Sequence record: NC_094493.1
Length of the DNA stretch: 64,000 nt
Source of the DNA: a phage
Reading direction: 5' to 3' (one strand)
Within the stretch, counting starts at the first letter, position 1, and each line of letters opens with the position of its first letter. Below the pieces are notes generated by a model, which made no database searches, had not been told where the DNA came from, and saw only the letters and a list, made by a program, of their open reading frames with translations. This document shows positions 5,013 to 62,292 of the stretch, piece by piece. The translations under genes were made by a program, and so were the position numbers.

Positions 5013-6238
5013 TGAGCGTTATTCAACAATTCGCTAACCCAATGAATCCGCGTGAAACTGTTTTACTAGCTCACGGCATGATTAAACGTGTTAGCATCAA
5101 GCCTATTAAAGGTGCTGATCCTACAACAGGTATTAAAACCACTGTGTGGCAAGGTAAGAAAATTGAATCCAGCCACACCATCTCTTTACTGATTTCTGAA
5201 CTGGATTCCTCTGATAACCTGCTTCAAGGTGGTGAAGAAGTCTGGATCAGCATGGGTGATAAGCTGCTTAAACCAGGTCATCAAGACTCTGTCTCTGTTA
5301 AGATTGATGACAAGTGGGAAACCGTAACGCCAGGATGGATCGTAAATATCCCTTTGAAGGCAAACGAGCATAACGGTAAGACCTATTACAAGGGCTCACT
5401 GGCTAAGATGGTTAAGCTGGGTGCAGGAGAGGCTCCAGCAGCGACTCAGCAGCAAAAACAGCAACAAGGTGCACAATCACAAGGCCAGAAGCAGAAACCT
5501 CAGCAGAATGCCAATCAGGACGTTTTACGCATCTATGGTGATGTGACTCAGATTGTTGGCAACGTGGTTACTGTTAATGACCACAAGATTGGCGAAGGTG
5601 CTATGGTTGTAACTGATGAGCAGCTTAAAGACCTGGTGGTAGGTGGTCGTGTTGCAGCCATTGTTGACAAAGACACCGGAAACATTATCAGTGGTTTCAA
5701 GGCCTATCCCCCTAAGGCAGAGAACGGCACTCAAGGATCTGGTGGCAAGCGTAAATCCTCTTACGACCCTATCGGTGTGGAAACGGGGCATAGCATCAAT
5801 GCGTTGCAGATCATCCTGGATCGCGGGTTTAAGGTAGACGACCCACTGGGCGTGGCTAAAACACTGCACGTAGTCACCATTGAGCTTAAGAAAGAGTATG
5901 CTCAAGCCACCAACCGAACTGAAGATGAAGTAGGTGCCAGTGTCGGTAATGCGGTGTTGAACGCTTGTCGCCGTATTGACAAGAAAACGAAAGTTGATGA
6001 TTTTGCAGCGGCAATTACTGCAGAAGCAAAAGATGTCTTGACTAATCTGGCTGAACCGTTGTACGATTGGATCAAGAACGGTGCTGGGTCAACCGACCAT
6101 CAAGAACCTCAGGCTGCCAAACAGGAAGCAGCTCCACAGCAAAACACTGTAGACGCTCCTCCTGTAAATGATGCGGAAGATGACCCAATGGATCAGAATC
6201 CAGCACAGTACGCCTTTGATGATGACATCCCTTTTTAA
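5012..6238 (+). CDS. Hypothetical protein with Gln-rich linker and host-SSB-like acidic C-terminal tail (possible ssDNA-binding or SSB-mimic protein)
   Basis: 408 aa ORF; C-terminus ...YAFDDDIPF matches the conserved E. coli SSB C-terminal peptide; Q-rich low-complexity linker; hairpin plus T-run after the stop. Confidence 0.6.
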   Translation: MSVIQQFANPMNPRETVLLAHGMIKRVSIKPIKGADPTTGIKTTVWQGKKIESSHTISLLISELDSSDNLLQGGEEVWISMGDKLLKPGHQDSVSVKIDDKWETVTPGWIVNIPLKANEHNGKTYYKGSLAKMVKLGAGEAPAATQQQKQQQGAQSQGQKQKPQQNANQDVLRIYGDVTQIVGNVVTVNDHKIGEGAMVVTDEQLKDLVVGGRVAAIVDKDTGNIISGFKAYPPKAENGTQGSGGKRKSSYDPIGVETGHSINALQIILDRGFKVDDPLGVAKTLHVVTIELKKEYAQATNRTEDEVGASVGNAVLNACRRIDKKTKVDDFAAAITAEAKDVLTNLAEPLYDWIKNGAGSTDHQEPQAAKQEAAPQQNTVDAPPVNDAEDDPMDQNPAQYAFDDDIPF

Positions 6239-6252
6239 CAATTAGTTAACAT

Positions 6253-6282
6253 AGCCCTGCCCGAAAGGGTGGGGCATTTTTG
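6253..6282 (+). terminator. Putative intrinsic terminator
   Basis: GC hairpin (ctgccc gaaa gggtgg) followed by a T-run, directly after the stop at 6238. Confidence 0.4.
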
Positions 6283-6300
6283 TATAAGGAGATCTGAAAA

Positions 6301-6717
6301 ATGACATTAGAAGATATCATTGTTAAACCTGAGAACTATGACCAATACAACCTGTCAACTCAATCTGTAGACCTCGGATGCGCCACAGTCAGTGCATGGC
6401 TGGTTAACGGAAAAGAGCTTGACGAGTGCCTAGAAGCACACATGTCGGTGAATAAATTTCTTGATGAAAATACCCACTGGCTAGAGGGTGCAGGAGTATA
6501 TGCTTCATGGTTGGAGAGTATGGGATTCGACTACCAATCTGAAGAGGGGTGGTGGAGCTATTTAGCTATCTGCCCAGAGACGCTGCAATGCTTCATGAAA
6601 TATTCTGAAGATTTGGAGTACCGGGCGGTGGTTGATAGTGCCATTGCCCGTTATAGCCGTAAACCTTTTTCCCACGACATTAAAACTGTGGAAGAATTTG
6701 TTGAAGTTTTCTGTTGA
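6301..6717 (+). CDS. hypothetical protein
   Basis: ORF with RBS aaggagatctgaaaa ATG. Confidence 0.5.
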   Translation: MTLEDIIVKPENYDQYNLSTQSVDLGCATVSAWLVNGKELDECLEAHMSVNKFLDENTHWLEGAGVYASWLESMGFDYQSEEGWWSYLAICPETLQCFMKYSEDLEYRAVVDSAIARYSRKPFSHDIKTVEEFVEVFC

Positions 6718-6813
6718 CACAGGTTGAAAGGTGTGCAATTATAACTTCATATAACGGGAGGACGCGATGAACGAAGAAAACTGGGATGTATAACTAACAG
6801 GAGGCCACTGCCC

Positions 6814-7011
6814 ATGATTTATCGAATCCGTGTAAGAGAAGATGCACCAGGCTGTTACTTTGACTGGCGTGGGTGGTGGTTTCTCCACCCAATGGATGGA
6901 CTCACAGATAGAATGCTGGATGCTGCCCTTTACACAGATACCGACATAGAATATAATCTCTATCTGAAGGACGGTATAGATAACGGCCTGTTTGAAGCAA
7001 TTCCTGTGTAA
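6814..7011 (+). CDS. hypothetical protein
   Basis: ORF with RBS acaggagg; promoter-like TTGACA at ~6714. Confidence 0.45.
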   Translation: MIYRIRVREDAPGCYFDWRGWWFLHPMDGLTDRMLDAALYTDTDIEYNLYLKDGIDNGLFEAIPV

Positions 7012-7079
7012 GAGACTGTGATAACTATGTTTTATGATCTTCCTGTAGCGCCACCACCTGTTGAACCCGGAGAACTAAG

Positions 7080-7505
7080 ATGATTTATGAAATGCCAAAA
7101 CTGATTCGTGACGATGCCCAAAACGCTCACACCATTATTATGGGCAAACGCATGGATATTATTTGTCATAAAGATTTCTGGGAAGGAAGTTACTTCACAG
7201 AGTATTTTGGTAAACTGGACAATGGTCTGCTGATCCAGTTCTACACCGATGCGGAAAACAATATCTGCTGGGAGTTCGAAACTGAAGATATCCATAAACT
7301 TTTCACCTTCCTCGGTATTAAGGTTGAGGCCAAGTTTGAAGAAGGTGAGTGCGACGATTGTGGATTCTACGAGGTAACAGATTTCTACCTCCCGAGCGGT
7401 GAGAACCTTTACTATGAAAGCCACTTCGGTAACTCCAATATGCCACAGTGCTGGACTGAGTTTTTTGAAATTGCGGAAGAGGAGCTGGCATACCGTGATT
7501 ATTGA
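7080..7505 (+). CDS. hypothetical protein
   Basis: ORF with RBS ccggagaac. Confidence 0.5.
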   Translation: MIYEMPKLIRDDAQNAHTIIMGKRMDIICHKDFWEGSYFTEYFGKLDNGLLIQFYTDAENNICWEFETEDIHKLFTFLGIKVEAKFEEGECDDCGFYEVTDFYLPSGENLYYESHFGNSNMPQCWTEFFEIAEEELAYRDY

Positions 7506-55472: not shown

Positions 55473-56756
55473 TTATTCCAGCACCTCCCAAGTGTCTGGG
55501 TTAACATTTCGGACGCAGATACCGACAGGGAATTGGTAGTTGTTGTCTTCTGTCCTTGCTTGATATTTGAAGGTGACAAACTTGCCGATCATTTCCTGCA
55601 TTCTGTCATAGCTACGCTCCTCGTGCGTACCTTTCATCTTCATTTTAACAACAATACCTTCCTTGTCAACACAGATAAGAACACCTTCATCATTCTTATC
55701 TTTCTCAACGTCAATAACTTTCACCTCTGCGTCGTTGAACTTTTTCCATTTCAATGCTTCAGATGTTCTCTGACCGTACTCATATTTACCACAGAAGTTA
55801 CGCATAATGGTACCTTCATATCCTTCGGACATGAATATACCAACAGATTCTTCGCAATGATCAACTGTGTACGCAAGCTCTGCGTCAACAACCTTGATAT
55901 GGTCAAGCATCAGAGTGGTAACGGTATCCTCTGCATCCATAAGATCCTTGCAGCGTCCAGACTCTGTTTCGGGATCCCACCACACCTTGTCGCTAGGAAT
56001 ATCAAAAATGTGATACTCCAGATCGTAGCTACAGTACCCACCGTAACGCAAATCATCACGAACAGGCTCAACATCGACAGGAATATCTACCTTGTTGAAG
56101 TTTTTATATGTTGATAAGCCGGACTTAATTGCGGCATGACGGCGTTTTTTATCTGCCTCATAGTCTTTATCGATCTCGGCCTGAATCTCTTCCTGTGTGC
56201 GCCACCGTTTAGCAAGAGACACTATTTTCTGCAAAGGAAGACCATGAATGTATAGTTCCCCATCAAGTTGTTTAATCCCAGTGGTAGAATGGAAAGAACG
56301 AAGTTGCTCTAAAAGCTTTCCTTGAATAGGGTAGGACTTATTACCACGGGAAATAAATTTAGGCTCACCATTTTGGAAAACAACAAGCAGACGAAGGCCA
56401 TCTAACTTACGCAAGATCCAGCAAGGTAGTTTAAGTGCCTTGCCACGCTTCAGGTAGTCATGCACCAGCATGGGTAAAAGATCAACACCCTGCTCGCAAT
56501 CTTCCATGTTTTCAACATACCCCAGACGGACTTGTTTTTCCCACTTGCTGATAGCCTCAAGCTCGGCCTGTTGCTCAGCTGTAGTCTCATTGGCACGACC
56601 TACGTTCTTAGGTGTGCATACCGTCTCTTTGTACTGCAATTTACCGTCAAGCTTGCCAAACTCTACGATAACCTTTTCGCCATCAGTGAATACTTTCCAC
56701 TGTTGGTAGCTGCCATCTTTGTTCAGTGCGTACAGTGTTGTTTTGATTTGATGCAT
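55473..56756 (-). CDS. ATP-dependent DNA ligase
   Basis: Nucleotidyltransferase motif I KLDG (ILRKLDGLRLLV); 427 aa. Confidence 0.6.
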   Translation of the reverse strand: MHQIKTTLYALNKDGSYQQWKVFTDGEKVIVEFGKLDGKLQYKETVCTPKNVGRANETTAEQQAELEAISKWEKQVRLGYVENMEDCEQGVDLLPMLVHDYLKRGKALKLPCWILRKLDGLRLLVVFQNGEPKFISRGNKSYPIQGKLLEQLRSFHSTTGIKQLDGELYIHGLPLQKIVSLAKRWRTQEEIQAEIDKDYEADKKRRHAAIKSGLSTYKNFNKVDIPVDVEPVRDDLRYGGYCSYDLEYHIFDIPSDKVWWDPETESGRCKDLMDAEDTVTTLMLDHIKVVDAELAYTVDHCEESVGIFMSEGYEGTIMRNFCGKYEYGQRTSEALKWKKFNDAEVKVIDVEKDKNDEGVLICVDKEGIVVKMKMKGTHEERSYDRMQEMIGKFVTFKYQARTEDNNYQFPVGICVRNVNPDTWEVLE

Positions 56757-57320: not shown

Positions 57321-57382
57321 AACTAACTACCTCGCTGCATACTTTCCATAATAAGTAAAGCCGGGATTACCCGGCTATGTTG

Positions 57383-58096
57383 TCAAATATACTCTGTTAC
57401 ATCCTTGAAGCTCGAAGGCTTCATGATCTTACCTTTACTGTCAAGGAATATGATAACTTTATTACCGTTGTAGAATTCTTCCTTAGCAACAAAACCTTCA
57501 TATCGACCATCAAAGCGTCGCTCAAGATCTTTAATCTCCAACTCGATGAGTTGTTCAGCAGGCATATCTGCACTGGCACCGTGTGAATACCGTAGATGGT
57601 TGACCCGTGCAAACTTGCTGTCATTCGATTTGAGAACCTTACGCATCATCCCGCACACATCGCCGCGAAGCTGGAACAGCAAAGCTGTTGACAACTCTGC
57701 TAAGCGGTAAGCAGACGCTCTTTGCTTAGAGGTGTTTTTCGCAGCGATCAGTGTATCATAGAACTCACCAATCTTGAACTTAATACCTCGTGGATTATCA
57801 AACAGGTTTGACCACTTTTCGTGATTGTCATTAACAAGATAAGCGGCATAACTTGTGACAACATGAAGATCGCAGGCCTCTTTTAGCAAGTGATCTCCAC
57901 CATCACCTTTCTCCAGCTCTTCCAAAACTTCATTGAACTCTTCCTCAATGAAGCTAAGCTGTAATTCGAATGGTGTGTATGATTTTTTCACCTTAGCTGC
58001 CACACGGTTCCAGTTTTCCACCCAGTTGGCAGACCAAAGGTAGTTTTCAGGCTGAGACAGTTTTTCCAGGTTGTCGATCAGTTTAGTATTCAGCAT
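57383..58096 (-). CDS. MazG-like nucleoside triphosphate pyrophosphohydrolase domain protein
   Basis: EEEFNEVLEELEKGD...KEACDLHV matches the MazG EExxE...E...D metal-binding helix pattern. Confidence 0.5.
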   Translation of the reverse strand: MLNTKLIDNLEKLSQPENYLWSANWVENWNRVAAKVKKSYTPFELQLSFIEEEFNEVLEELEKGDGGDHLLKEACDLHVVTSYAAYLVNDNHEKWSNLFDNPRGIKFKIGEFYDTLIAAKNTSKQRASAYRLAELSTALLFQLRGDVCGMMRKVLKSNDSKFARVNHLRYSHGASADMPAEQLIELEIKDLERRFDGRYEGFVAKEEFYNGNKVIIFLDSKGKIMKPSSFKDVTEYI

Positions 58097-58109
58097 TAAA
58101 GGTCTCCTT

Positions 58110-58871
58110 TTAAAGTTCCATAAAGTTTTCTACAGTTTCAATAAATACTTTATCAGAGAAAGCGTCAACAGCACCGTTAAACCATACAGGGATCCCGCGA
58201 TCCTCATATTGATAAAGGTCGCTACGTGAAATGCCACTTCCATCTGCACTCTGCGAATCATACTTGTTTACAATCAGCAGTTTTGTGCCTTTACAAGTAG
58301 CAGGAAACAATTCCCAGTTAAAATTAATAACTGTGTTAGAACAACCTACCAGGATAACCATATCATTGCTTGTGAGAGATGTCAACAGGTCATACATGTC
58401 TGTATACTTAGGAGCAACCTCACCGAAGAACACTACATTGGGCTTAACCCAGGTATACTTACCTGTATCTACCTCCGTGTATCCGATATTTTTAATTACA
58501 TCATTACCTTCAGCATCTTCGTAGGTGATTTCAGGCAAATACCCGTGGACATGTAAAATATCTTCATGTTTTACACCAGCACGCTCCAGCAAATCATCTA
58601 CATTGGTGGTAAGGTTGATCACACGACCAGACCAGCGGGAATACCACTCAGCGATCCGAAGATGTGCAAGGTTAGGATCAACACTGCCCAGAGCTACACG
58701 ACGTGCATTGTAAAAGTCATGCACCTTATAGTAGTTCTTGGCAAAGGTGTGGATGTTGCACACCTCATCTATGCTGAAATTCTCCCACATTGCAGTACTA
58801 CCAGATCGGAAAGTGGGAATACCAGATTCAGCGCTCAAACCAGCACCGGAGATAATAATCAGTCGTCGCAT
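58110..58871 (-). CDS. Sir2-family NAD-dependent protein (zinc-ribbon-less sirtuin-like)
   Basis: GAGLSAESGIPTFR, TTNVDDLLERAG, HVHG, PNVVFFGE, VILVGCS sirtuin motifs; no CxxC pairs. Confidence 0.65.
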   Translation of the reverse strand: MRRLIIISGAGLSAESGIPTFRSGSTAMWENFSIDEVCNIHTFAKNYYKVHDFYNARRVALGSVDPNLAHLRIAEWYSRWSGRVINLTTNVDDLLERAGVKHEDILHVHGYLPEITYEDAEGNDVIKNIGYTEVDTGKYTWVKPNVVFFGEVAPKYTDMYDLLTSLTSNDMVILVGCSNTVINFNWELFPATCKGTKLLIVNKYDSQSADGSGISRSDLYQYEDRGIPVWFNGAVDAFSDKVFIETVENFMEL

Positions 58872-58879
58872 AAGTGCCC

Positions 58880-59230
58880 TCAGTAGATGTTTTGTTTAAT
58901 CTCTATTCCAAACTTTTTAAACGAGTCAGCTGCAAGCATGAATTTACGAGCCGCTGATGGATTAGAAGTATGTACGAAAATCTTCACGTTGTCAACCACG
59001 GGAGGCTTACCGAATACAAATTTTTCCTCCAACATGGATAGGCAATCGTATCCTTCGAATACTTCTCCTAGGTCGTTGTCCATATGCCACTCAGAAACGC
59101 GTCTGTAGAGCTTTCCCTTATCGTTAATAAAATCCATAAACTCGGAGGAATTCTTCAGCCAAACAGCGTCTGGGAGCCCGTAATTTGACGGATCTCTTAA
59201 GTCATCTAGCCACACAATCAACTTCTTCAT
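58880..59230 (-). CDS. hypothetical protein
   Basis: 116 aa ORF between the Sir2-like and RNA ligase genes. Confidence 0.45.
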   Translation of the reverse strand: MKKLIVWLDDLRDPSNYGLPDAVWLKNSSEFMDFINDKGKLYRRVSEWHMDNDLGEVFEGYDCLSMLEEKFVFGKPPVVDNVKIFVHTSNPSAARKFMLAADSFKKFGIEIKQNIY

Positions 59231-60162
59231 TGCATATAGTTCTCGTTGTGGAAATAGTAATCAAGTATCTCACGGCGTTCCTGCTCCAGGAGGCAGTTCC
59301 ACACATCCTCTGTGTAATTGCTACGAATGAAGTTTACCATGCCGTAAAACTCTTCGTCAACACGTTTAAAGATATCATCATCCCAAATCTTCCAAGCTTT
59401 ACCCCTCATTACGGCCTTCCGTGCCAGATAGTATGGAGACTTGATCTTCAGCTGCAGATCATAAGGGTAGTAAGGCTTACGAATCATATACCCTTCACCT
59501 CTTGTTTCTGCAGCTAATTCTTTTGCATAGCTGAACGGAATTTCACGCACAGTGTGAGGACGTTTTGCACCAAGGTATTTGGCAATCCCATCTAAAGCTG
59601 CTTCTGGTAGCATTATTCCAGAATCATTATATCTGCAACCTATCAAATATGCGCCATGATCTTCCTGAACAATATGCGGATCTGAAGGGTGACAAATTTC
59701 AAACATGAATGTCATGTTTTCATTGCCCATAACCTTCTTGATAAGATCTAAATTACCACATTGCTCTTGGATGGTTTCCTTTGCAAGGTTACAATATGGA
59801 GAATCAAGAGACCCGGTTGTTGAGAACAATAGTTCACCTTTATGAGATGATACCACACCGAGGAATCCGTTCTTTTTCTCTACCGCAGTAACAAGTTTAC
59901 TGTCCGGTAGGTTGGTGGAGTTTTCTCCTAAGTTGAATACTTTTGTGAAAGGCCATGCCACAACATTCCCCTCATTGCCAACAACAATACCTCGGCACTC
60001 CAGTAAACGCGGAGACAAATGCCACAGATTGTTGTAGAATACTTTTCTGGCATATTTATAGATCTTTAATCCAAGATCTGGATAATACCGACTGGTTACA
60101 AGACCTTTGTCTACTAGGTCATCTGCATTAAAATACTTCATCATACGTTCCTCATTTGTCAT
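59227..60162 (-). CDS. RNA ligase, T4 Rnl1-like
   Basis: LLECRGIVV...KVFNLGEN...EKKNGFL...LFSTTGS aligns with T4 Rnl1 ALECRGIMF...KFFNLNEN...TKEDGSL...LFKSKGS; motif I reads KKNG rather than KxDG. Confidence 0.6.
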   Translation of the reverse strand: MTNEERMMKYFNADDLVDKGLVTSRYYPDLGLKIYKYARKVFYNNLWHLSPRLLECRGIVVGNEGNVVAWPFTKVFNLGENSTNLPDSKLVTAVEKKNGFLGVVSSHKGELLFSTTGSLDSPYCNLAKETIQEQCGNLDLIKKVMGNENMTFMFEICHPSDPHIVQEDHGAYLIGCRYNDSGIMLPEAALDGIAKYLGAKRPHTVREIPFSYAKELAAETRGEGYMIRKPYYPYDLQLKIKSPYYLARKAVMRGKAWKIWDDDIFKRVDEEFYGMVNFIRSNYTEDVWNCLLEQERREILDYYFHNENYMQ

Positions 60163-60262
60163 TTTGTCAGTCTATCCTGCCACACAAATAACCTAGTGTC
60201 AACACTTGAAATTAACAAAACAGTTAGGTATACTATCATTAAAATTAAAACGGAGGGTTGCT

Positions 60263-60673
60263 ATGTCTAAAATGCTATATATCGTGCGTGGTCTGCCAGG
60301 GTCTGGCAAATCAACACTGGCAAATGCGCTATCTTTAGAAGGTCTGTATCCACATTTTGAGAACGACATGTTCTGGTATGACGATGACGGCAATTACAAC
60401 TGGGATGCAAGTAAAGTAACACTCGCAGCAAAATGGTGCAAAGATAACGTAGAAGATATGATGCGTATGGGATACGACCGTATCGTGGTAAGTAATACGT
60501 TTACAAAAGAAAAACATGTGCAGGAATATGTTGACATGGCAATCAGTCACGGGTATAGTTATACCGTGATCGTGGTTGAAAACCGCCACGGTAATAAAAG
60601 CATTCATGATGTTCCAGACAAGGTTGTGGATCGTATGGAACGCCAGCTTAAAAACTGCATTAAACTTAAATGA
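60263..60673 (+). CDS. P-loop polynucleotide kinase-like protein
   Basis: Walker A GLPGSGKST resembles T4 Pnk kinase N-terminus; RBS ggaggg; divergent from the RNA ligase gene. Confidence 0.5.
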   Translation: MSKMLYIVRGLPGSGKSTLANALSLEGLYPHFENDMFWYDDDGNYNWDASKVTLAAKWCKDNVEDMMRMGYDRIVVSNTFTKEKHVQEYVDMAISHGYSYTVIVVENRHGNKSIHDVPDKVVDRMERQLKNCIKLK

Positions 60674-60680
60674 GGAATGT

Positions 60681-61235
60681 ATGAAATACTTTGTAACAAG
60701 CGACACACACTTTCTCCACCAGCGGGTCATGGAGTTTGATTCATGTCAAAAACACAGATCTCAGTATGATCACAATCTTGACAGTATGAATGCGGGAATC
60801 ATCACCAAGTGGAACTCTGTTGTGTCACCTGCAGACACTGTGTTTCACTTGGGAGATATTGCGTGCACTAATGATAAGAATATCAACAAATTGCTCCCAG
60901 ATGTTCTAAATATGTTGAACGGACATATTATTCTTGTTCGTGGTAACCATGACACAAGGACGACTGTCAGAATTATGAAAGAGTTCGGTCATGAGGTTGT
61001 AGATTATTACGAGCTTCGCCACAACAAGAATTTGATCTGTATGAGCCATTACCAGTTTGCAAAGTGGAACAGAAAGCCTCACGGATCAGTCCAACTGTTC
61101 GGTCATGCTCACGGAACCACACAGCAGTTGTTTGGCAGGCAGTTTGATGTCGGTTGGGATGTGTGGGGGAGACTCTTACCATTAGAAGAGGCATACCGTA
61201 TTGCAATGAGTCTTGCTATTGACAGCGGGGAGTAA
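60681..61235 (+). CDS. Calcineurin-like metallophosphoesterase
   Basis: SDTHF, HLGDI, GNHD, GHAHG metallophosphatase motifs; RBS aaatgagga. Confidence 0.65.
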   Translation: MKYFVTSDTHFLHQRVMEFDSCQKHRSQYDHNLDSMNAGIITKWNSVVSPADTVFHLGDIACTNDKNINKLLPDVLNMLNGHIILVRGNHDTRTTVRIMKEFGHEVVDYYELRHNKNLICMSHYQFAKWNRKPHGSVQLFGHAHGTTQQLFGRQFDVGWDVWGRLLPLEEAYRIAMSLAIDSGE

Positions 61236-61282: not shown

Positions 61283-61633
61283 ATGAAAGATGGGGATAAG
61301 CTGCTATATCTTAAAGTCCCCCTTGAAATACTGTCTATGTCAAAAGTTTTGAATGACACAACTGGGGAGGTTGTTGTTCTTGACTTATATGACAAGATCG
61401 TATACTGCTACCTGCACAACTGGTATAAGCTTGGAGGAAATTCACGCTTCACACCCAGCACAAGGAAAATTGCAGCAGATGTTGGGATAAAGAAAACAAA
61501 AGCAGCAGCGTGCGTTAAAACTTTAGAATGTGCAGGAGTGGTTGAAATATCCACACAAGGGAGAGGTAAAAGATGTACATTTTCCAAAGTTTTGCCACCA
61601 GAAGAGGTTATTCGAATGTCAACAACTGGTTAG
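61283..61633 (+). CDS. HTH DNA-binding protein (putative replication initiator or regulator)
   Basis: Helix-turn-helix-like STRKIAADVGIKKTKAAACVKTLECAGVVE; immediately upstream of the palindrome array. Confidence 0.5.
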   Translation: MKDGDKLLYLKVPLEILSMSKVLNDTTGEVVVLDLYDKIVYCYLHNWYKLGGNSRFTPSTRKIAADVGIKKTKAAACVKTLECAGVVEISTQGRGKRCTFSKVLPPEEVIRMSTTG

Positions 61634-61706
61634 ACCAGTAAAAACTTAAATATCTGTACTATAAGGATTCGTATGTTTTATGTTCGCTCTGGAACAGAGG
61701 TCAGTA

Positions 61707-61790
61707 ACTGTCCGTGATACGGACACTACTGTCCGTCACGCGGACACATCTGCCCGTAATACGGACACTAACTGTCCGTGATACGGACAC
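61707..61790. repeat. Four tandem 21-bp imperfect palindromes (iteron/operator array)
   Basis: ACTGTCCGTGATACGGACACT repeated four times head-to-tail with minor variation; each is a GTCCGT-N3-ACGGAC palindrome. Confidence 0.75.
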
Positions 61791-61920
61791 ATAAAGAATA
61801 TAACTAAAATAACTAAATAATAAAAATAAAAGATCTAGTACTTATGGTACTAAGTACATATACTTAACTTATGTAGAATATACTAGATCCTAAGTACCAT
61901 GTTTTAAAATTATTACTTAC
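61791..61920. other. AT-rich tract adjacent to the palindrome array (possible DNA unwinding element)
   Basis: About 80 percent A+T over ~130 bp, with palindromes AGTACTTA/TAAGTAC. Confidence 0.45.
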
Positions 61921-62160
61921 TATAGGTAGTGTCGGCCCTTCATTGGCACTCGCCTACGAGGGGCGAGATGCCGGGCCTCCTTGGTGCACACAATAACAGA
62001 AGTGCATACATGCAGGTCTGTTAACATGTGTGGGAGCGAAGCGATAGCGCAGGCCAAAGGCCGAGCACTGATGTGGACCACCGACGAAAGCTTGCCAGCG
62101 CCGTAAGGAGTCGGTTGAGAGTCTCCCGCGCGAGCTTGGATGAAGTTTATGTGTGGAAAC
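61921..62160. ncRNA. GC-rich structured island (candidate ncRNA)
   Basis: Sharp rise in G+C with many short complementary segments; the only ORF is a - strand R/P/C-rich artefact. Confidence 0.25.
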
Positions 62161-62292
62161 TGACAAGAAGGCCCCTAAATCGCTCCACAGCTATATAAAC
62201 TATACCAGGTAATGCAATCGCACCAGTTTGATAGAAAAGCTCGTTACAAAGTGATACAGTGAGTTTTTCTATAACTTGAAGAGGAGGCGGCT

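What the first reader, a model, noticed from the sequence alone, without database searches (positions are those of the whole stretch)
59227..61235. RNA repair module: Rnl1-like RNA ligase divergent from polynucleotide kinase-like and metallophosphoesterase genes
A T4-Rnl1-like ligase (- strand) sits back-to-back with a P-loop kinase and a calcineurin-type phosphoesterase (+ strand). Together these are the end-healing and end-sealing activities used to repair tRNAs cut by host anticodon nucleases. Here the healing functions are split into two proteins, and the phosphatase is a metallophosphoesterase rather than the HAD domain of T4 Pnk. The ligase motif I reads KKNG instead of KxDG, which is unusual.
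Basis: partly seen in the sequence, partly recalled or inferred. Interest (0 to 1): 0.6.

Follow-up and report, generated by a model that had tools for sequence, protein, structure and literature searches.

The report
Phage RNA break-repair gene cluster
An rV5-type E. coli phage carries neighbouring genes for an RNA ligase, a small kinase and a phosphoesterase (plus three helper genes) that most likely mend RNAs cut by host defence nucleases; this cluster had already been predicted in the literature but has not been tested in the laboratory.

Summary
The window comes from a Vequintavirus (rV5-like E. coli phage, 97-99.8% identical to published genomes). An Rnl1-like RNA ligase (59227-60162, -) is transcribed divergently from a 136-aa P-loop kinase (60263-60673, +) and a 184-aa binuclear metallophosphoesterase (60681-61235, +).

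All catalytic motifs are intact. Motif I is K96-K-N-G. KxNG is invariant across this ligase family and is also the normal motif I of fungal Trl1, so it is not an oddity.

The functional link is strong. Of 80 distant viral loci with this ligase, 71 have the kinase and 62 the phosphoesterase within 6 kb. Kinase-ligase fusions occur in phages and Cardiobacteriaceae. Leptolyngbyaceae cyanobacteria encode single kinase-metallophosphoesterase-ligase proteins with the same ligase type.

The ligase operon continues into a cREC domain protein, a zinc-less sirtuin and a MazG-like protein.

Iyer et al. 2022 described this neighbourhood with phage V5 as prototype, and GenBank records already carry these names. 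It is a well-supported but already predicted heal-and-seal RNA repair module. No biochemistry was found, and the target RNA is unknown. Interest is modest.

The parts
59227..60162 (-). Rnl1-like ATP-dependent RNA ligase, 311 aa. The motif I nucleophile is K96 (KKNG). Other catalytic residues: R57, K74/F76, E155, E223-G224, K239/K241. It has a short helical C-terminal domain (about residues 243-311).
60163..60262 (.). Divergent 100-bp intergenic region. It holds a promoter-like TTGAAA-17-TATACT at 60206-60234 (+) and a GGAGGG ribosome-binding site before ATG 60263.
   Evidence: Promoter-like sites in the wider region are not more frequent than in shuffles, so this is only suggestive.
60263..60673 (+). 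Small P-loop kinase, 136 aa, AAA_33, candidate polynucleotide 5'-kinase. It has the P-loop G10-x2-G13-x-G15-K16-S17, an invariant D35, and invariant E106-N107-R108-H109.
   Evidence: Pfam AAA_33 E=1e-10. phrog_2071 and phrog_505 'polynucleotide kinase'. hhalign to the T4 Pnk kinase domain: probability 96%, D35 aligned to Asp35. Best fold matches are CthPnkp kinase, T4 Pnk and PSTK, TM 0.70-0.77.
60681..61235 (+). Binuclear metallophosphoesterase, 184 aa, candidate 2',3'-cyclic phosphodiesterase/phosphatase. Motifs: D8-x-H10, G58-D59, G88-N89-H90, H123, G141-H142-x-H144.
   Evidence: Pfam Metallophos_2/Metallophos. phrog_547. The motifs are conserved in at least 97% of 91 homologues. The nearest solved structure is Aquifex aq_1665 (1xm7), E=6e-26, function unknown. 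It starts 7 nt after the kinase stop.
58880..59230 (-). cREC (cyclic-phosphate-processing receiver-like) protein, 116 aa. It is translationally coupled to the ligase by an ATGA overlap.
   Evidence: Pfam PF20274 E=1.5e-14. Overlap read directly. Conserved D9, D10, D51, T88/S89, K96. A cREC follows distant Rnl1-like ligases elsewhere, e.g. L144.
58110..58871 (-). Sirtuin (Sir2) family protein, 253 aa. The NAD-binding motif and catalytic His109 are present; the zinc-ribbon cysteines are absent.
   Evidence: Pfam SIR2 E=7e-28. phrog_2162. Conserved residues. Named as part of this neighbourhood in PMC9503650.
57383..58096 (-). MazG-like nucleotide pyrophosphohydrolase, 237 aa, the last gene of the ligase operon.
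   Evidence: phrog_671 E=5e-22 and no Pfam match. Conserved E52/E53/E56 cluster. Listed in the published neighbourhood.
57359..57376 (-). Terminator-like GC-rich hairpin immediately after the MazG-like gene; the likely 3' end of the ligase-cREC-Sir2-MazG transcription unit.
   Evidence: 7-bp stem with 6 GC pairs. The T tract is weak, and terminator-like sites are not enriched over shuffles.

Best explanation
This is a phage RNA 'heal-and-seal' repair module. [quoted passage not shown]

Proposed steps:
1. The small P-loop kinase phosphorylates the 5'-OH. Asp35 acts as general base and the P-loop Lys/Ser hold the NTP.
2. The binuclear metallophosphoesterase, and/or the cREC protein, opens and removes the cyclic or terminal phosphate to give a 3'-OH.
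3. The Rnl1-like ligase is adenylylated on Lys96, transfers AMP to the 5'-phosphate and seals the break.

In Vequintavirus the ligase operon also carries cREC, a zinc-less sirtuin and a MazG-like enzyme. These probably deal with 2'-phosphate or ADP-ribose-derived by-products, as proposed by Iyer et al. 2022.

Shown here: gene order, intact catalytic motifs, folds, conserved linkage and fusions. Inferred: every enzymatic activity, the order of steps and the RNA target.
For: Ligase:
- All T4 Rnl1 catalytic positions align: R57, K74, F76, K96, G99, E155, E223-G224, K239, K241.

Kinase:
- hhalign gives 96% probability to the T4 Pnk kinase domain, with invariant D35 on Asp35, the general base.
- The best fold matches are polynucleotide and tRNA kinases, TM 0.70-0.77, against about 0.5 for NMP kinases.

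Phosphoesterase:
- All five metal-binding motifs are conserved in 91 homologues.

Linkage:
- In 80 ligase-anchored viral loci (35-89% identity), the kinase is present in 71, the phosphoesterase in 62, and all three in 56.
- 11 loci encode a kinase-ligase fusion.
- Cardiobacteriaceae have a kinase-ligase fusion with the phosphoesterase adjacent.
- Leptolyngbyaceae chromosomes encode single AAA_33-Metallophos-Rnl1-like proteins. Their ligase domain aligns end to end with this one, including KxNG and the C-terminal domain. An RtcB gene lies 1.6 kb away in L173.
- Six loci have kinase + ligase + cREC and no phosphoesterase, which suggests cREC and the phosphoesterase are alternative 3'-end healers.

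Precedent and context:
- CthPnkp is a kinase-metallophosphoesterase-ligase RNA repair enzyme.
- Phage V5 is the published prototype of this neighbourhood.
- The phage tRNA cluster (Arg, Tyr, Ser, Lys, Thr, Met) lies about 3 kb downstream in a close relative.
Against: - No biochemical or genetic data for any of the six proteins were found.
- The kinase has an aromatic residue (W38) where T4 Pnk has Arg38. Only one invariant lid arginine (R108) is present, and it aligns with T4 R122 rather than Arg126.
- The phosphoesterase is not of the lambda-phosphatase/CthPnkp clade. Its nearest solved relative has no known function.
- Kinase + phosphoesterase pairs often occur with no Rnl1-like ligase within 5 kb (33-34 of 79 kinase-anchored loci). 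The pair may therefore also have a ligase-independent role.
- The ligase falls far below the NCBIfam T4 RnlA equivalog cut-off (38 versus 242 bits).
- Its C-terminal domain is not recognisably that of T4 Rnl1, so tRNA specificity cannot be assumed.
Confidence: 0.75

Rival explanations
1. A Trl1/Tpt1-like pathway (the Iyer et al. 2022 proposal in its strong form). cREC opens the cyclic phosphate to 3'-OH/2'-PO4. The KxNG ligase seals ends that bear a 2'-phosphate. The zinc-less sirtuin then removes the junction 2'-phosphate with NAD+, as Tpt1/KptA does. MazG, cREC or the phosphoesterase clear the ADP-ribose cyclic phosphate by-product.
For: - The ligase, cREC and Sir2 genes are tightly packed in one operon with an ATGA overlap.
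- KxNG is the Trl1 motif I.
- Conserved basic residues K248/K249/R253 follow motif V. This is roughly where Trl1 has Arg334/Arg337, proposed to bind the 2'-PO4.
- The idea is published.
Against: - Sir2 accompanies the ligase in only 11 of 80 loci and cREC in 13 of 80, whereas KxNG is invariant. The ligase family therefore works mostly without a sirtuin.
- Sequence profiles retrieve T4 Rnl1 (E=4e-26) and do not retrieve Trl1 at E up to 10.
- No sirtuin is known to have 2'-phosphotransferase activity.
- I could not superpose the basic patch on the Trl1 sulfate site.
Confidence: 0.15
2. The kinase, phosphoesterase, cREC, sirtuin and MazG-like proteins act on small nucleotides rather than on RNA ends. 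Candidate substrates are immune signalling molecules, NAD+/ADP-ribose derivatives, 2',3'-cyclic NMPs or the dNTP pool. On this reading the ligase is only a neighbour.
For: - The kinase-phosphoesterase pair is common without a nearby Rnl1-like ligase (33-34 of 79 loci).
- Iyer et al. call the kinase a 'nucleotide kinase'.
- cREC, sirtuin and MazG families are linked to NAD+/ADPr chemistry.
- A Nudix gene lies near several ligase-less kinase-phosphoesterase loci.
Against: - Kinase-ligase fusions, and kinase-metallophosphoesterase-ligase fusions carrying the same ligase type, argue for one pathway on one substrate.
- The kinase fold and profile are closest to polynucleotide and tRNA kinases.
- Linkage to the ligase reaches 71 of 80 loci.
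Confidence: 0.07
3. The kinase and phosphoesterase heal DNA ends (5'-OH/3'-phosphate nicks) for the phage ATP-dependent DNA ligase at 55473-56756. The 'RNA ligase' serves mainly as a T4 gp63-like tail-fibre attachment factor, as many GenBank records label it.
For: - A DNA ligase gene lies 2.5 kb away on the same strand as the RNA ligase and is within 6 kb in 31 of 80 ligase loci.
- T4 Pnkp also acts on DNA ends.
- The phosphoesterase gives weak hits to PdeM, a ligase-associated DNA-damage nuclease, and to 'Nuclease MPE' structures.
- The annotation 'RNA ligase and tail fiber protein attachment catalyst' appears in relatives.
Against: - The DNA ligase is near the kinase in only 9 of 79 kinase-anchored loci, against 25 of 79 for the RNA ligase.
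- The fusions are always to the Rnl1-like domain.
- The tail-fibre label is transferred by homology from T4 gp63. I found no support for it in this family.
Confidence: 0.03

Closest known systems
Sirtuin-centred RNA-repair gene neighbourhood, type 2, of Iyer, Burroughs, Anantharaman and Aravind 2022 (Viruses 14:1977, PMC9503650), prototyped by Escherichia phage V5 and Proteus phage Mydo
   Same: It is the same locus in the same phage genus: T4-like tRNA ligase, cREC, sirtuin, nucleotide kinase, MazG pyrophosphatase and a calcineurin-like phosphoesterase. All six are present here.
   Different: That paper centres the system on the sirtuin and calls the phosphoesterase 'occasional'. Anchored on the ligase, the constant core is ligase + kinase + phosphoesterase (71 and 62 of 80 loci). 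The sirtuin and cREC are lineage-restricted additions (11 and 13 of 80). Neither study has experiments.
Phage T4 tRNA repair pathway (Pnkp plus Rnl1) that counters the PrrC anticodon nuclease
   Same: Both have an Rnl1-type adenylyltransferase domain with all catalytic residues aligned. Both have a P-loop 5'-kinase with the Asp35 general base. Both are phage-encoded.
   Different: Here the kinase and phosphatase are separate proteins. The phosphatase is a binuclear metallophosphoesterase rather than a DxDxT/HAD acylphosphatase. Motif I is KxNG rather than KxDG. The ligase C-terminal domain is about 65 aa and not recognisably homologous to T4's tRNA-specificity domain. The kinase lacks the Arg38 equivalent.
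Bacterial Pnkp (Clostridium thermocellum CthPnkp/Hen1; Capnocytophaga Pnkp1-Rnl-Hen1)
   Same: The chemistry set is the same: P-loop polynucleotide kinase, binuclear metallophosphoesterase that removes 2',3'-cyclic, 2'- and 3'-phosphates, and an ATP-dependent ligase. The kinase fold is closest to the CthPnkp kinase (TM 0.77). Cyanobacterial relatives fuse all three domains, with a Pnkp-type kinase-phosphatase (TIGR04075 E=6e-53), to this ligase type.
Fungal/plant tRNA ligase Trl1 (Rnl6 clade) with Tpt1
   Different: There is no detectable sequence-profile similarity to Trl1. The C-terminal domain differs. The proteins are separate. The sirtuin is unrelated to Tpt1. A requirement for 2'-PO4 is untested.

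Membership tests
T4 Rnl1-type RNA ligase (Rnl1 clade) | Covalent nucleotidyltransferase motifs I, III, IV and V with a lysine nucleophile | tested here: met
   K96 (I), E155 (III), E223-G224 (IV) and K239/K241 (V) are invariant in 22 homologues and align to the T4 Rnl1 motifs.
T4 Rnl1-type RNA ligase (Rnl1 clade) | Rnl1-type N-terminal sub-domain carrying the Arg54, Lys75 and Phe76 equivalents that contact ATP | tested here: met
   R57, K74 and F76 are invariant and aligned (LECRGI and P-x-x-K-x-FN). The roles of the T4 residues are stated in PMC6379707.
T4 Rnl1-type RNA ligase (Rnl1 clade) | Motif I KxDG, with Asp two residues after the lysine | tested here: not met
   N98 replaces the Asp, and KxNG is invariant in the family. 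More distant phage Rnl1-like ligases paired with the same kinase keep KxDG.
T4 Rnl1-type RNA ligase (Rnl1 clade) | T4 Rnl1-type C-terminal domain (the paper cited says it confers tRNA anticodon-loop specificity; its extent, about 120 aa, is from my own knowledge) | tested here: inconclusive
T4 Rnl1-type RNA ligase (Rnl1 clade) | Curated family thresholds | tested here: inconclusive
   Pfam PF09511 is passed (55.5 bits versus 28.3). The NCBIfam TIGR02308 equivalog is not reached (38 versus 242.25 bits).
T4 Rnl1-type RNA ligase (Rnl1 clade) | ATP-dependent sealing of 3'-OH/5'-PO4 RNA ends | not testable with these tools
   This needs an enzyme assay.
Trl1-LIG (Rnl6 clade) | Motif I KxNG and a Trl1-specific C-terminal domain with the proposed 2'-PO4 site (Arg334/Arg337 in Chaetomium Trl1) | tested here: inconclusive
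   KxNG is met. Trl1 is not retrieved by sequence profiles at E up to 10. The fold similarity covers about 258 residues. K248/K249/R253 follow motif V but could not be superposed on the Trl1 site.
T4 Pnkp-type polynucleotide 5'-kinase domain | P-loop GxxGxGKS | tested here: met
   G10-L-P-G13-S-G15-K16-S17 is conserved in the family and aligned to the T4 P-loop. The motif definition is in PMC3592404.
T4 Pnkp-type polynucleotide 5'-kinase domain | General-base aspartate (T4 Asp35) | tested here: met
   D35 is invariant in 18 homologues and aligned to T4 Asp35 by hhalign.
T4 Pnkp-type polynucleotide 5'-kinase domain | Transition-state arginine (T4 Arg126) | tested here: inconclusive
   Invariant R108 aligns with T4 R122, and K112 (not invariant) aligns with Arg126. 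This loop has low model confidence (pLDDT 60-74).
T4 Pnkp-type polynucleotide 5'-kinase domain | Arg38, which binds the phosphate of the 5'-terminal nucleotide (from my own knowledge of the T4 Pnk mutational literature) | tested here: not met
   W38 here, and F/W/Y/H in homologues, aligns with T4 Arg38.
CthPnkp / lambda-phosphatase-type RNA end-healing metallophosphoesterase | Binuclear metal-binding motifs DxH, GD, GNH(D/E), H and GHxH | tested here: met
   D8, H10, G58-D59, G88-N89-H90, H123 and G141-H142-x-H144 are each conserved in at least 97% of 91 homologues and invariant in A5.
CthPnkp / lambda-phosphatase-type RNA end-healing metallophosphoesterase | Membership of the lambda-phosphatase/Pnkp clade by sequence | tested here: not met
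   The profile search finds Aquifex aq_1665 (E=6e-26), then GpdQ and 'Nuclease MPE'. No lambda-phosphatase or CthPnkp appears. No TIGR04075 hit was found. The Pnkp-type domain is what the cyanobacterial fusions carry.
cREC (PF20274) | Receiver-like fold with the acidic pair, central Asp, Thr/Ser and Lys | tested here: met
   PF20274 scores 54.9 bits against a cut-off of 27. D9, D10, D51, T88/S89 and K96 are conserved in 11 homologues.
Sirtuin (PF02146) | NAD-binding GAGxS motif, catalytic His and a Cys4 zinc ribbon | tested here: inconclusive
   PF02146 E=7e-28. G9-A-G11, N90/D92 and H109 are conserved. Only C38 and C177 are conserved cysteines, so the zinc ribbon is missing.
Published phage V5-type sirtuin/RNA-repair neighbourhood (PMC9503650) | Co-located sirtuin, T4-like ligase, cREC, kinase, MazG and, in some cases, a calcineurin-like phosphoesterase | tested here: met
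   All six genes lie within 57383-61235. The window is 97% identical to rV5-type genomes.

The most novel reading that the evidence does not exclude
The ligase-cREC-sirtuin-MazG operon may be a bacteriophage counterpart of the eukaryotic Trl1/Tpt1 pathway. On this reading cREC opens the cyclic phosphate to a 2'-phosphate. The KxNG ligase seals 2'-phosphate-bearing ends. The zinc-less sirtuin then acts as an NAD+-dependent RNA 2'-phosphotransferase. That would be a new activity for the sirtuin fold. It would also mean phages run two parallel 3'-end-healing routes, one through the metallophosphoesterase and one through cREC and the sirtuin. The idea was raised by Iyer et al. 2022 but has not been tested.
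Probability: 0.12. Interest if true: 0.75.

Novelty: already known. Interest (0 to 1): 0.3.

Why it matters
RNA-cutting defence systems such as anticodon nucleases and toxin RNases are common. T4 Pnkp/Rnl1 remains almost the only phage counter-measure that has been proven.

This cluster shows that a different, split version of the same chemistry is widespread: a small kinase, an uncharacterised metallophosphoesterase subfamily and a KxNG Rnl1-like ligase. It occurs in phages, and in fused form in cyanobacteria and Cardiobacteriaceae.

Testing it would do three things. It would assign a function to the aq_1665-type phosphoesterases and to the large family of roughly 130-aa 'predicted kinases'. 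It would show which host nucleases rV5-type therapeutic phages can resist. It would settle whether a sirtuin can replace Tpt1.

As a discovery, however, it repeats a published prediction and existing genome annotation.

Tried and rejected
- Single-sequence PDB searches with the ligase and the kinase gave only chance hits. Family profiles were needed.
- I tried to bring Trl1 into a sequence alignment with a broader ligase profile, to compare the proposed 2'-PO4 site. Trl1 was not retrieved even at E=10. The question is left open.
- The promoter and terminator scan found candidates, but no more than in shuffled sequence. The operon boundaries therefore rest on gene packing.
- ARAGORN and Rfam found no tRNA or known RNA in the window or in 55-64 kb. 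The phage tRNA cluster lies just beyond the window end in a relative.
- The Burroughs and Aravind 2016 RNA-repair survey could not be read.
- The homologue search with the phosphoesterase showed only stand-alone proteins and no fusions.
- The search for related loci with the broad alignment A4 failed for lack of a conserved stretch. A1 was used instead.
- I first submitted a structure job with a locus-derived sequence in the alignment.
- I considered the 'tail-fibre attachment' label and rejected it. It is transferred from T4 gp63 and I found no support for it in this family.
Full report
**Where the window comes from.** A 2.9-kb query spanning the finding matches 119 phage records. The best is Escherichia phage phiWec189 at 99.8% identity, and rV5-type genomes (genus Vequintavirus) match at about 97%. 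Those records already name the genes 'RNA ligase', 'phosphoesterase', 'AAA family ATPase' or '3'-phosphatase, 5'-polynucleotide kinase', and 'Sir2-like protein'.

**The observation.**
- The ligase is 59227-60162 on the minus strand (311 aa).
- The kinase is best started at ATG 60263, six bases after GGAGGG, and ends at 60673 (136 aa).
- The phosphoesterase is best started at ATG 60681 and ends at 61235 (184 aa). These starts agree with the annotation of phage Mangalyan.
- The ligase and kinase are divergent, head to head, across 100 bp. That spacer holds one promoter-like site for the plus strand. Such sites are not enriched over shuffles, so I give this little weight.
- Pfam gives RNA_lig_T4_1 (E=9.2e-15, full model), AAA_33 (E=1e-10) and Metallophos_2/Metallophos.

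**The ligase.**
- About 1,700 database clusters are related.
- In an alignment of 22 homologues at about 45% identity, the invariant residues include R57, K74, F76, K96, N98, G99, E155, E223, G224, K239 and K241.
- A profile of this alignment finds T4 Rnl1 (2C5U) at E=5e-13. A broader profile that adds more distant phage ligases reaches E=4e-26.
- The alignments put the conserved residues on the T4 motifs LECRGI, K-x-FN, KEDG, FE, EG and K-x-K. [quoted passage not shown]
- Homology to T4 stops at about residue 245. The remaining roughly 65 residues are helical and have their own invariant positions. This is an Rnl1-type catalytic domain with a different, shorter C-terminal domain.

**Motif I.** It reads KKNG as reported, but the Asn is invariant across the family. 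KxNG is explicitly the motif I of Trl1, where the Asn contacts the catalytic metal through water (PMC6379707). More distant phage Rnl1-like ligases that sit next to the same kinase family keep KxDG. The substitution is a clade trait, not a sign of lost activity.

**The kinase.**
- It belongs to a very large family of roughly 130-aa stand-alone proteins. Invariant residues are the P-loop, D35, N78-T79 and E106-N107-R108-H109.
- I checked that my recalled T4 Pnk kinase-domain sequence is identical to PDB 1LY1. I then aligned the family profile to it.
- The result is probability 96%, E=3e-9. D35 falls on Asp35, which is the general base according to PMC3592404.
- Arg38 of T4 is replaced by an aromatic residue. 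The invariant R108 aligns with R122 rather than Arg126, in a loop of low model confidence.
- The best structural matches by TM-score are the CthPnkp kinase, T4 Pnk and the tRNA kinase PSTK (0.70-0.77). Nucleotide kinases score about 0.5.
- I read this as a minimal polynucleotide-kinase-like enzyme whose substrate is still unproven.

**The phosphoesterase.**
- All five binuclear metal-binding motifs are conserved in 91 homologues.
- The closest solved protein is Aquifex aq_1665 (1XM7, E=6e-26), which has no known function. The lambda-phosphatase/CthPnkp clade is not retrieved.
- Its role rests on context only.

**Context: the main evidence.**
- I fetched 80 viral loci encoding relatives of the ligase (35-89% identity) and scanned their ORFs.
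  - With family HMMs, the kinase is present in 71, the phosphoesterase in 62 and all three in 56.
  - They are mostly on one strand and adjacent.
  - In 11 loci the kinase and ligase are one ORF, kinase first.
- Anchoring on the kinase instead (79 loci) gives the phosphoesterase in 51 and an Rnl1-like ligase in 25.
  - The kinase-phosphoesterase pair is therefore the more widespread unit.
  - It often lacks a nearby ligase.
- Six loci have kinase, ligase and cREC but no phosphoesterase. This suggests that cREC and the phosphoesterase are alternative 3'-end healers.
- In bacterial genomes:
  - Cardiobacteriaceae carry a kinase-ligase fusion followed by the phosphoesterase.
  - Many Leptolyngbyaceae cyanobacteria encode a single 710-790-aa protein with AAA_33, Metallophos and RNA_lig_T4_1 domains.
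  - The kinase-phosphatase part of that protein is of the bacterial Pnkp type.
  - Its ligase part aligns end to end with the phage ligase, including KxNG and the C-terminal domain.
  - In Leptolyngbya PCC 7375 an RtcB gene lies 1.6 kb away.
- These fusions are the strongest argument that the three phage proteins act in one pathway.

The ligase stop overlaps the start of a cREC protein (ATGA). It is followed, after 8 nt, by a sirtuin and, after 13 nt, by a MazG-like gene. A hairpin then follows. cREC keeps the receiver-type acidic residues. The sirtuin keeps its NAD-binding motif and catalytic His but has no zinc-ribbon cysteines.

**Prior description.**
- Iyer et al. [quoted passage not shown]
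- They propose that the sirtuin acts like KptA on 2'-phosphates.
- The 2021 jumbo-phage paper from the same group introduced cREC and its links to RNA ligases.
- My counts refine that picture. Around this ligase family the phosphoesterase is a regular partner. The sirtuin (11 of 80) and cREC (13 of 80) are restricted to rV5-like genomes of about 145 kb and a few others.

**Mechanism.**
- The best-supported model is a T4/CthPnkp-style heal-and-seal pathway split over separate proteins. CthPnkp is the precedent for a metallophosphoesterase that removes 2',3'-cyclic, 2'- and 3'-phosphates from RNA.
- The Trl1/Tpt1-like variant cannot be excluded for Vequintavirus. It is unlikely to be the general mode of this ligase family, because most members have no sirtuin nearby.
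- The RNA target is inferred. A phage tRNA cluster (Arg, Tyr, Ser, Lys, Thr, Met) lies about 3 kb downstream in a close relative. The ligase lacks a recognisable T4-type C-terminal domain, the one PMC6379707 credits with tRNA anticodon-loop specificity.
- I found no experimental work on these proteins in the searchable library.

**Verdict.** This is a real, coherent and widespread RNA repair module. It has already been predicted for this phage genus and is already reflected in genome annotation. The motif I 'anomaly' is normal for the clade. Interest is modest. The open experimental questions are the substrate of the small kinase, the activity of the aq_1665-type phosphoesterase, and the proposed sirtuin 2'-phosphotransferase.

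Noticed in passing
window 61699-61790: There are four copies, 21-22 nt apart, of a 17-nt palindrome (TGTCCGTGATACGGACA). They lie directly after the HTH/DUF6945 gene at 61283-61633, which relatives annotate as 'replication initiation protein' or 'transcriptional regulator'. An AT-rich stretch follows at 61795-61920. This looks like an iteron or operator array, possibly a replication origin. The GC skew changes sign near 60 kb.
   Followed up: partly
window 61920-62200: This is a GC-rich stretch without a convincing ORF. It has no Rfam match and no tRNA. As RNA it folds somewhat better than shuffles (MFE -104.4 kcal/mol, z = -2.76). Phage Mangalyan annotates two tiny hypothetical ORFs here. It may be an undescribed structured RNA.
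   Followed up: partly
window 58110-58871: The phage sirtuin keeps the NAD-binding motif and catalytic His109 but has no zinc-ribbon cysteines. Only C38 and C177 are conserved among 12 homologues.
   Followed up: partly
loci L084, L087, L096, L119, L159 (about 6030-7330 in each): In low-GC viral contigs the kinase-phosphoesterase pair has no ligase nearby. There a conserved ORF of about 415 aa, with an HExxH-like 'HE(I/L)KHKYDKQ' motif and no Pfam match, always follows the phosphoesterase. A Nudix gene lies about 2 kb upstream in several of these contigs.
   Followed up: partly
loci L166-L191 (Leptolyngbyaceae genomes), e.g. L173 3546-5861 and 7457-8644: These cyanobacterial chromosomes encode a trifunctional kinase-metallophosphoesterase-ligase. 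Its ligase domain is Rnl1-like (KxNG) rather than the Rnl4 type of CthPnkp. It scores far below the TIGR04075 Pnkp cut-off (180 versus 750 bits). An RtcB family gene lies 1.6 kb downstream in L173. This appears to be a distinct Pnkp variant.
   Followed up: partly
just beyond the window end (about 64.2-64.9 kb by correspondence with locus L001 11374-12098): The close relative Mangalyan has six tRNA genes (Arg, Tyr, Ser, Lys, Thr, Met) about 3 kb downstream of the phosphoesterase on the same strand. tRNA replacement and RNA repair functions are therefore neighbours. None of these tRNA genes falls inside the window.
   Followed up: no
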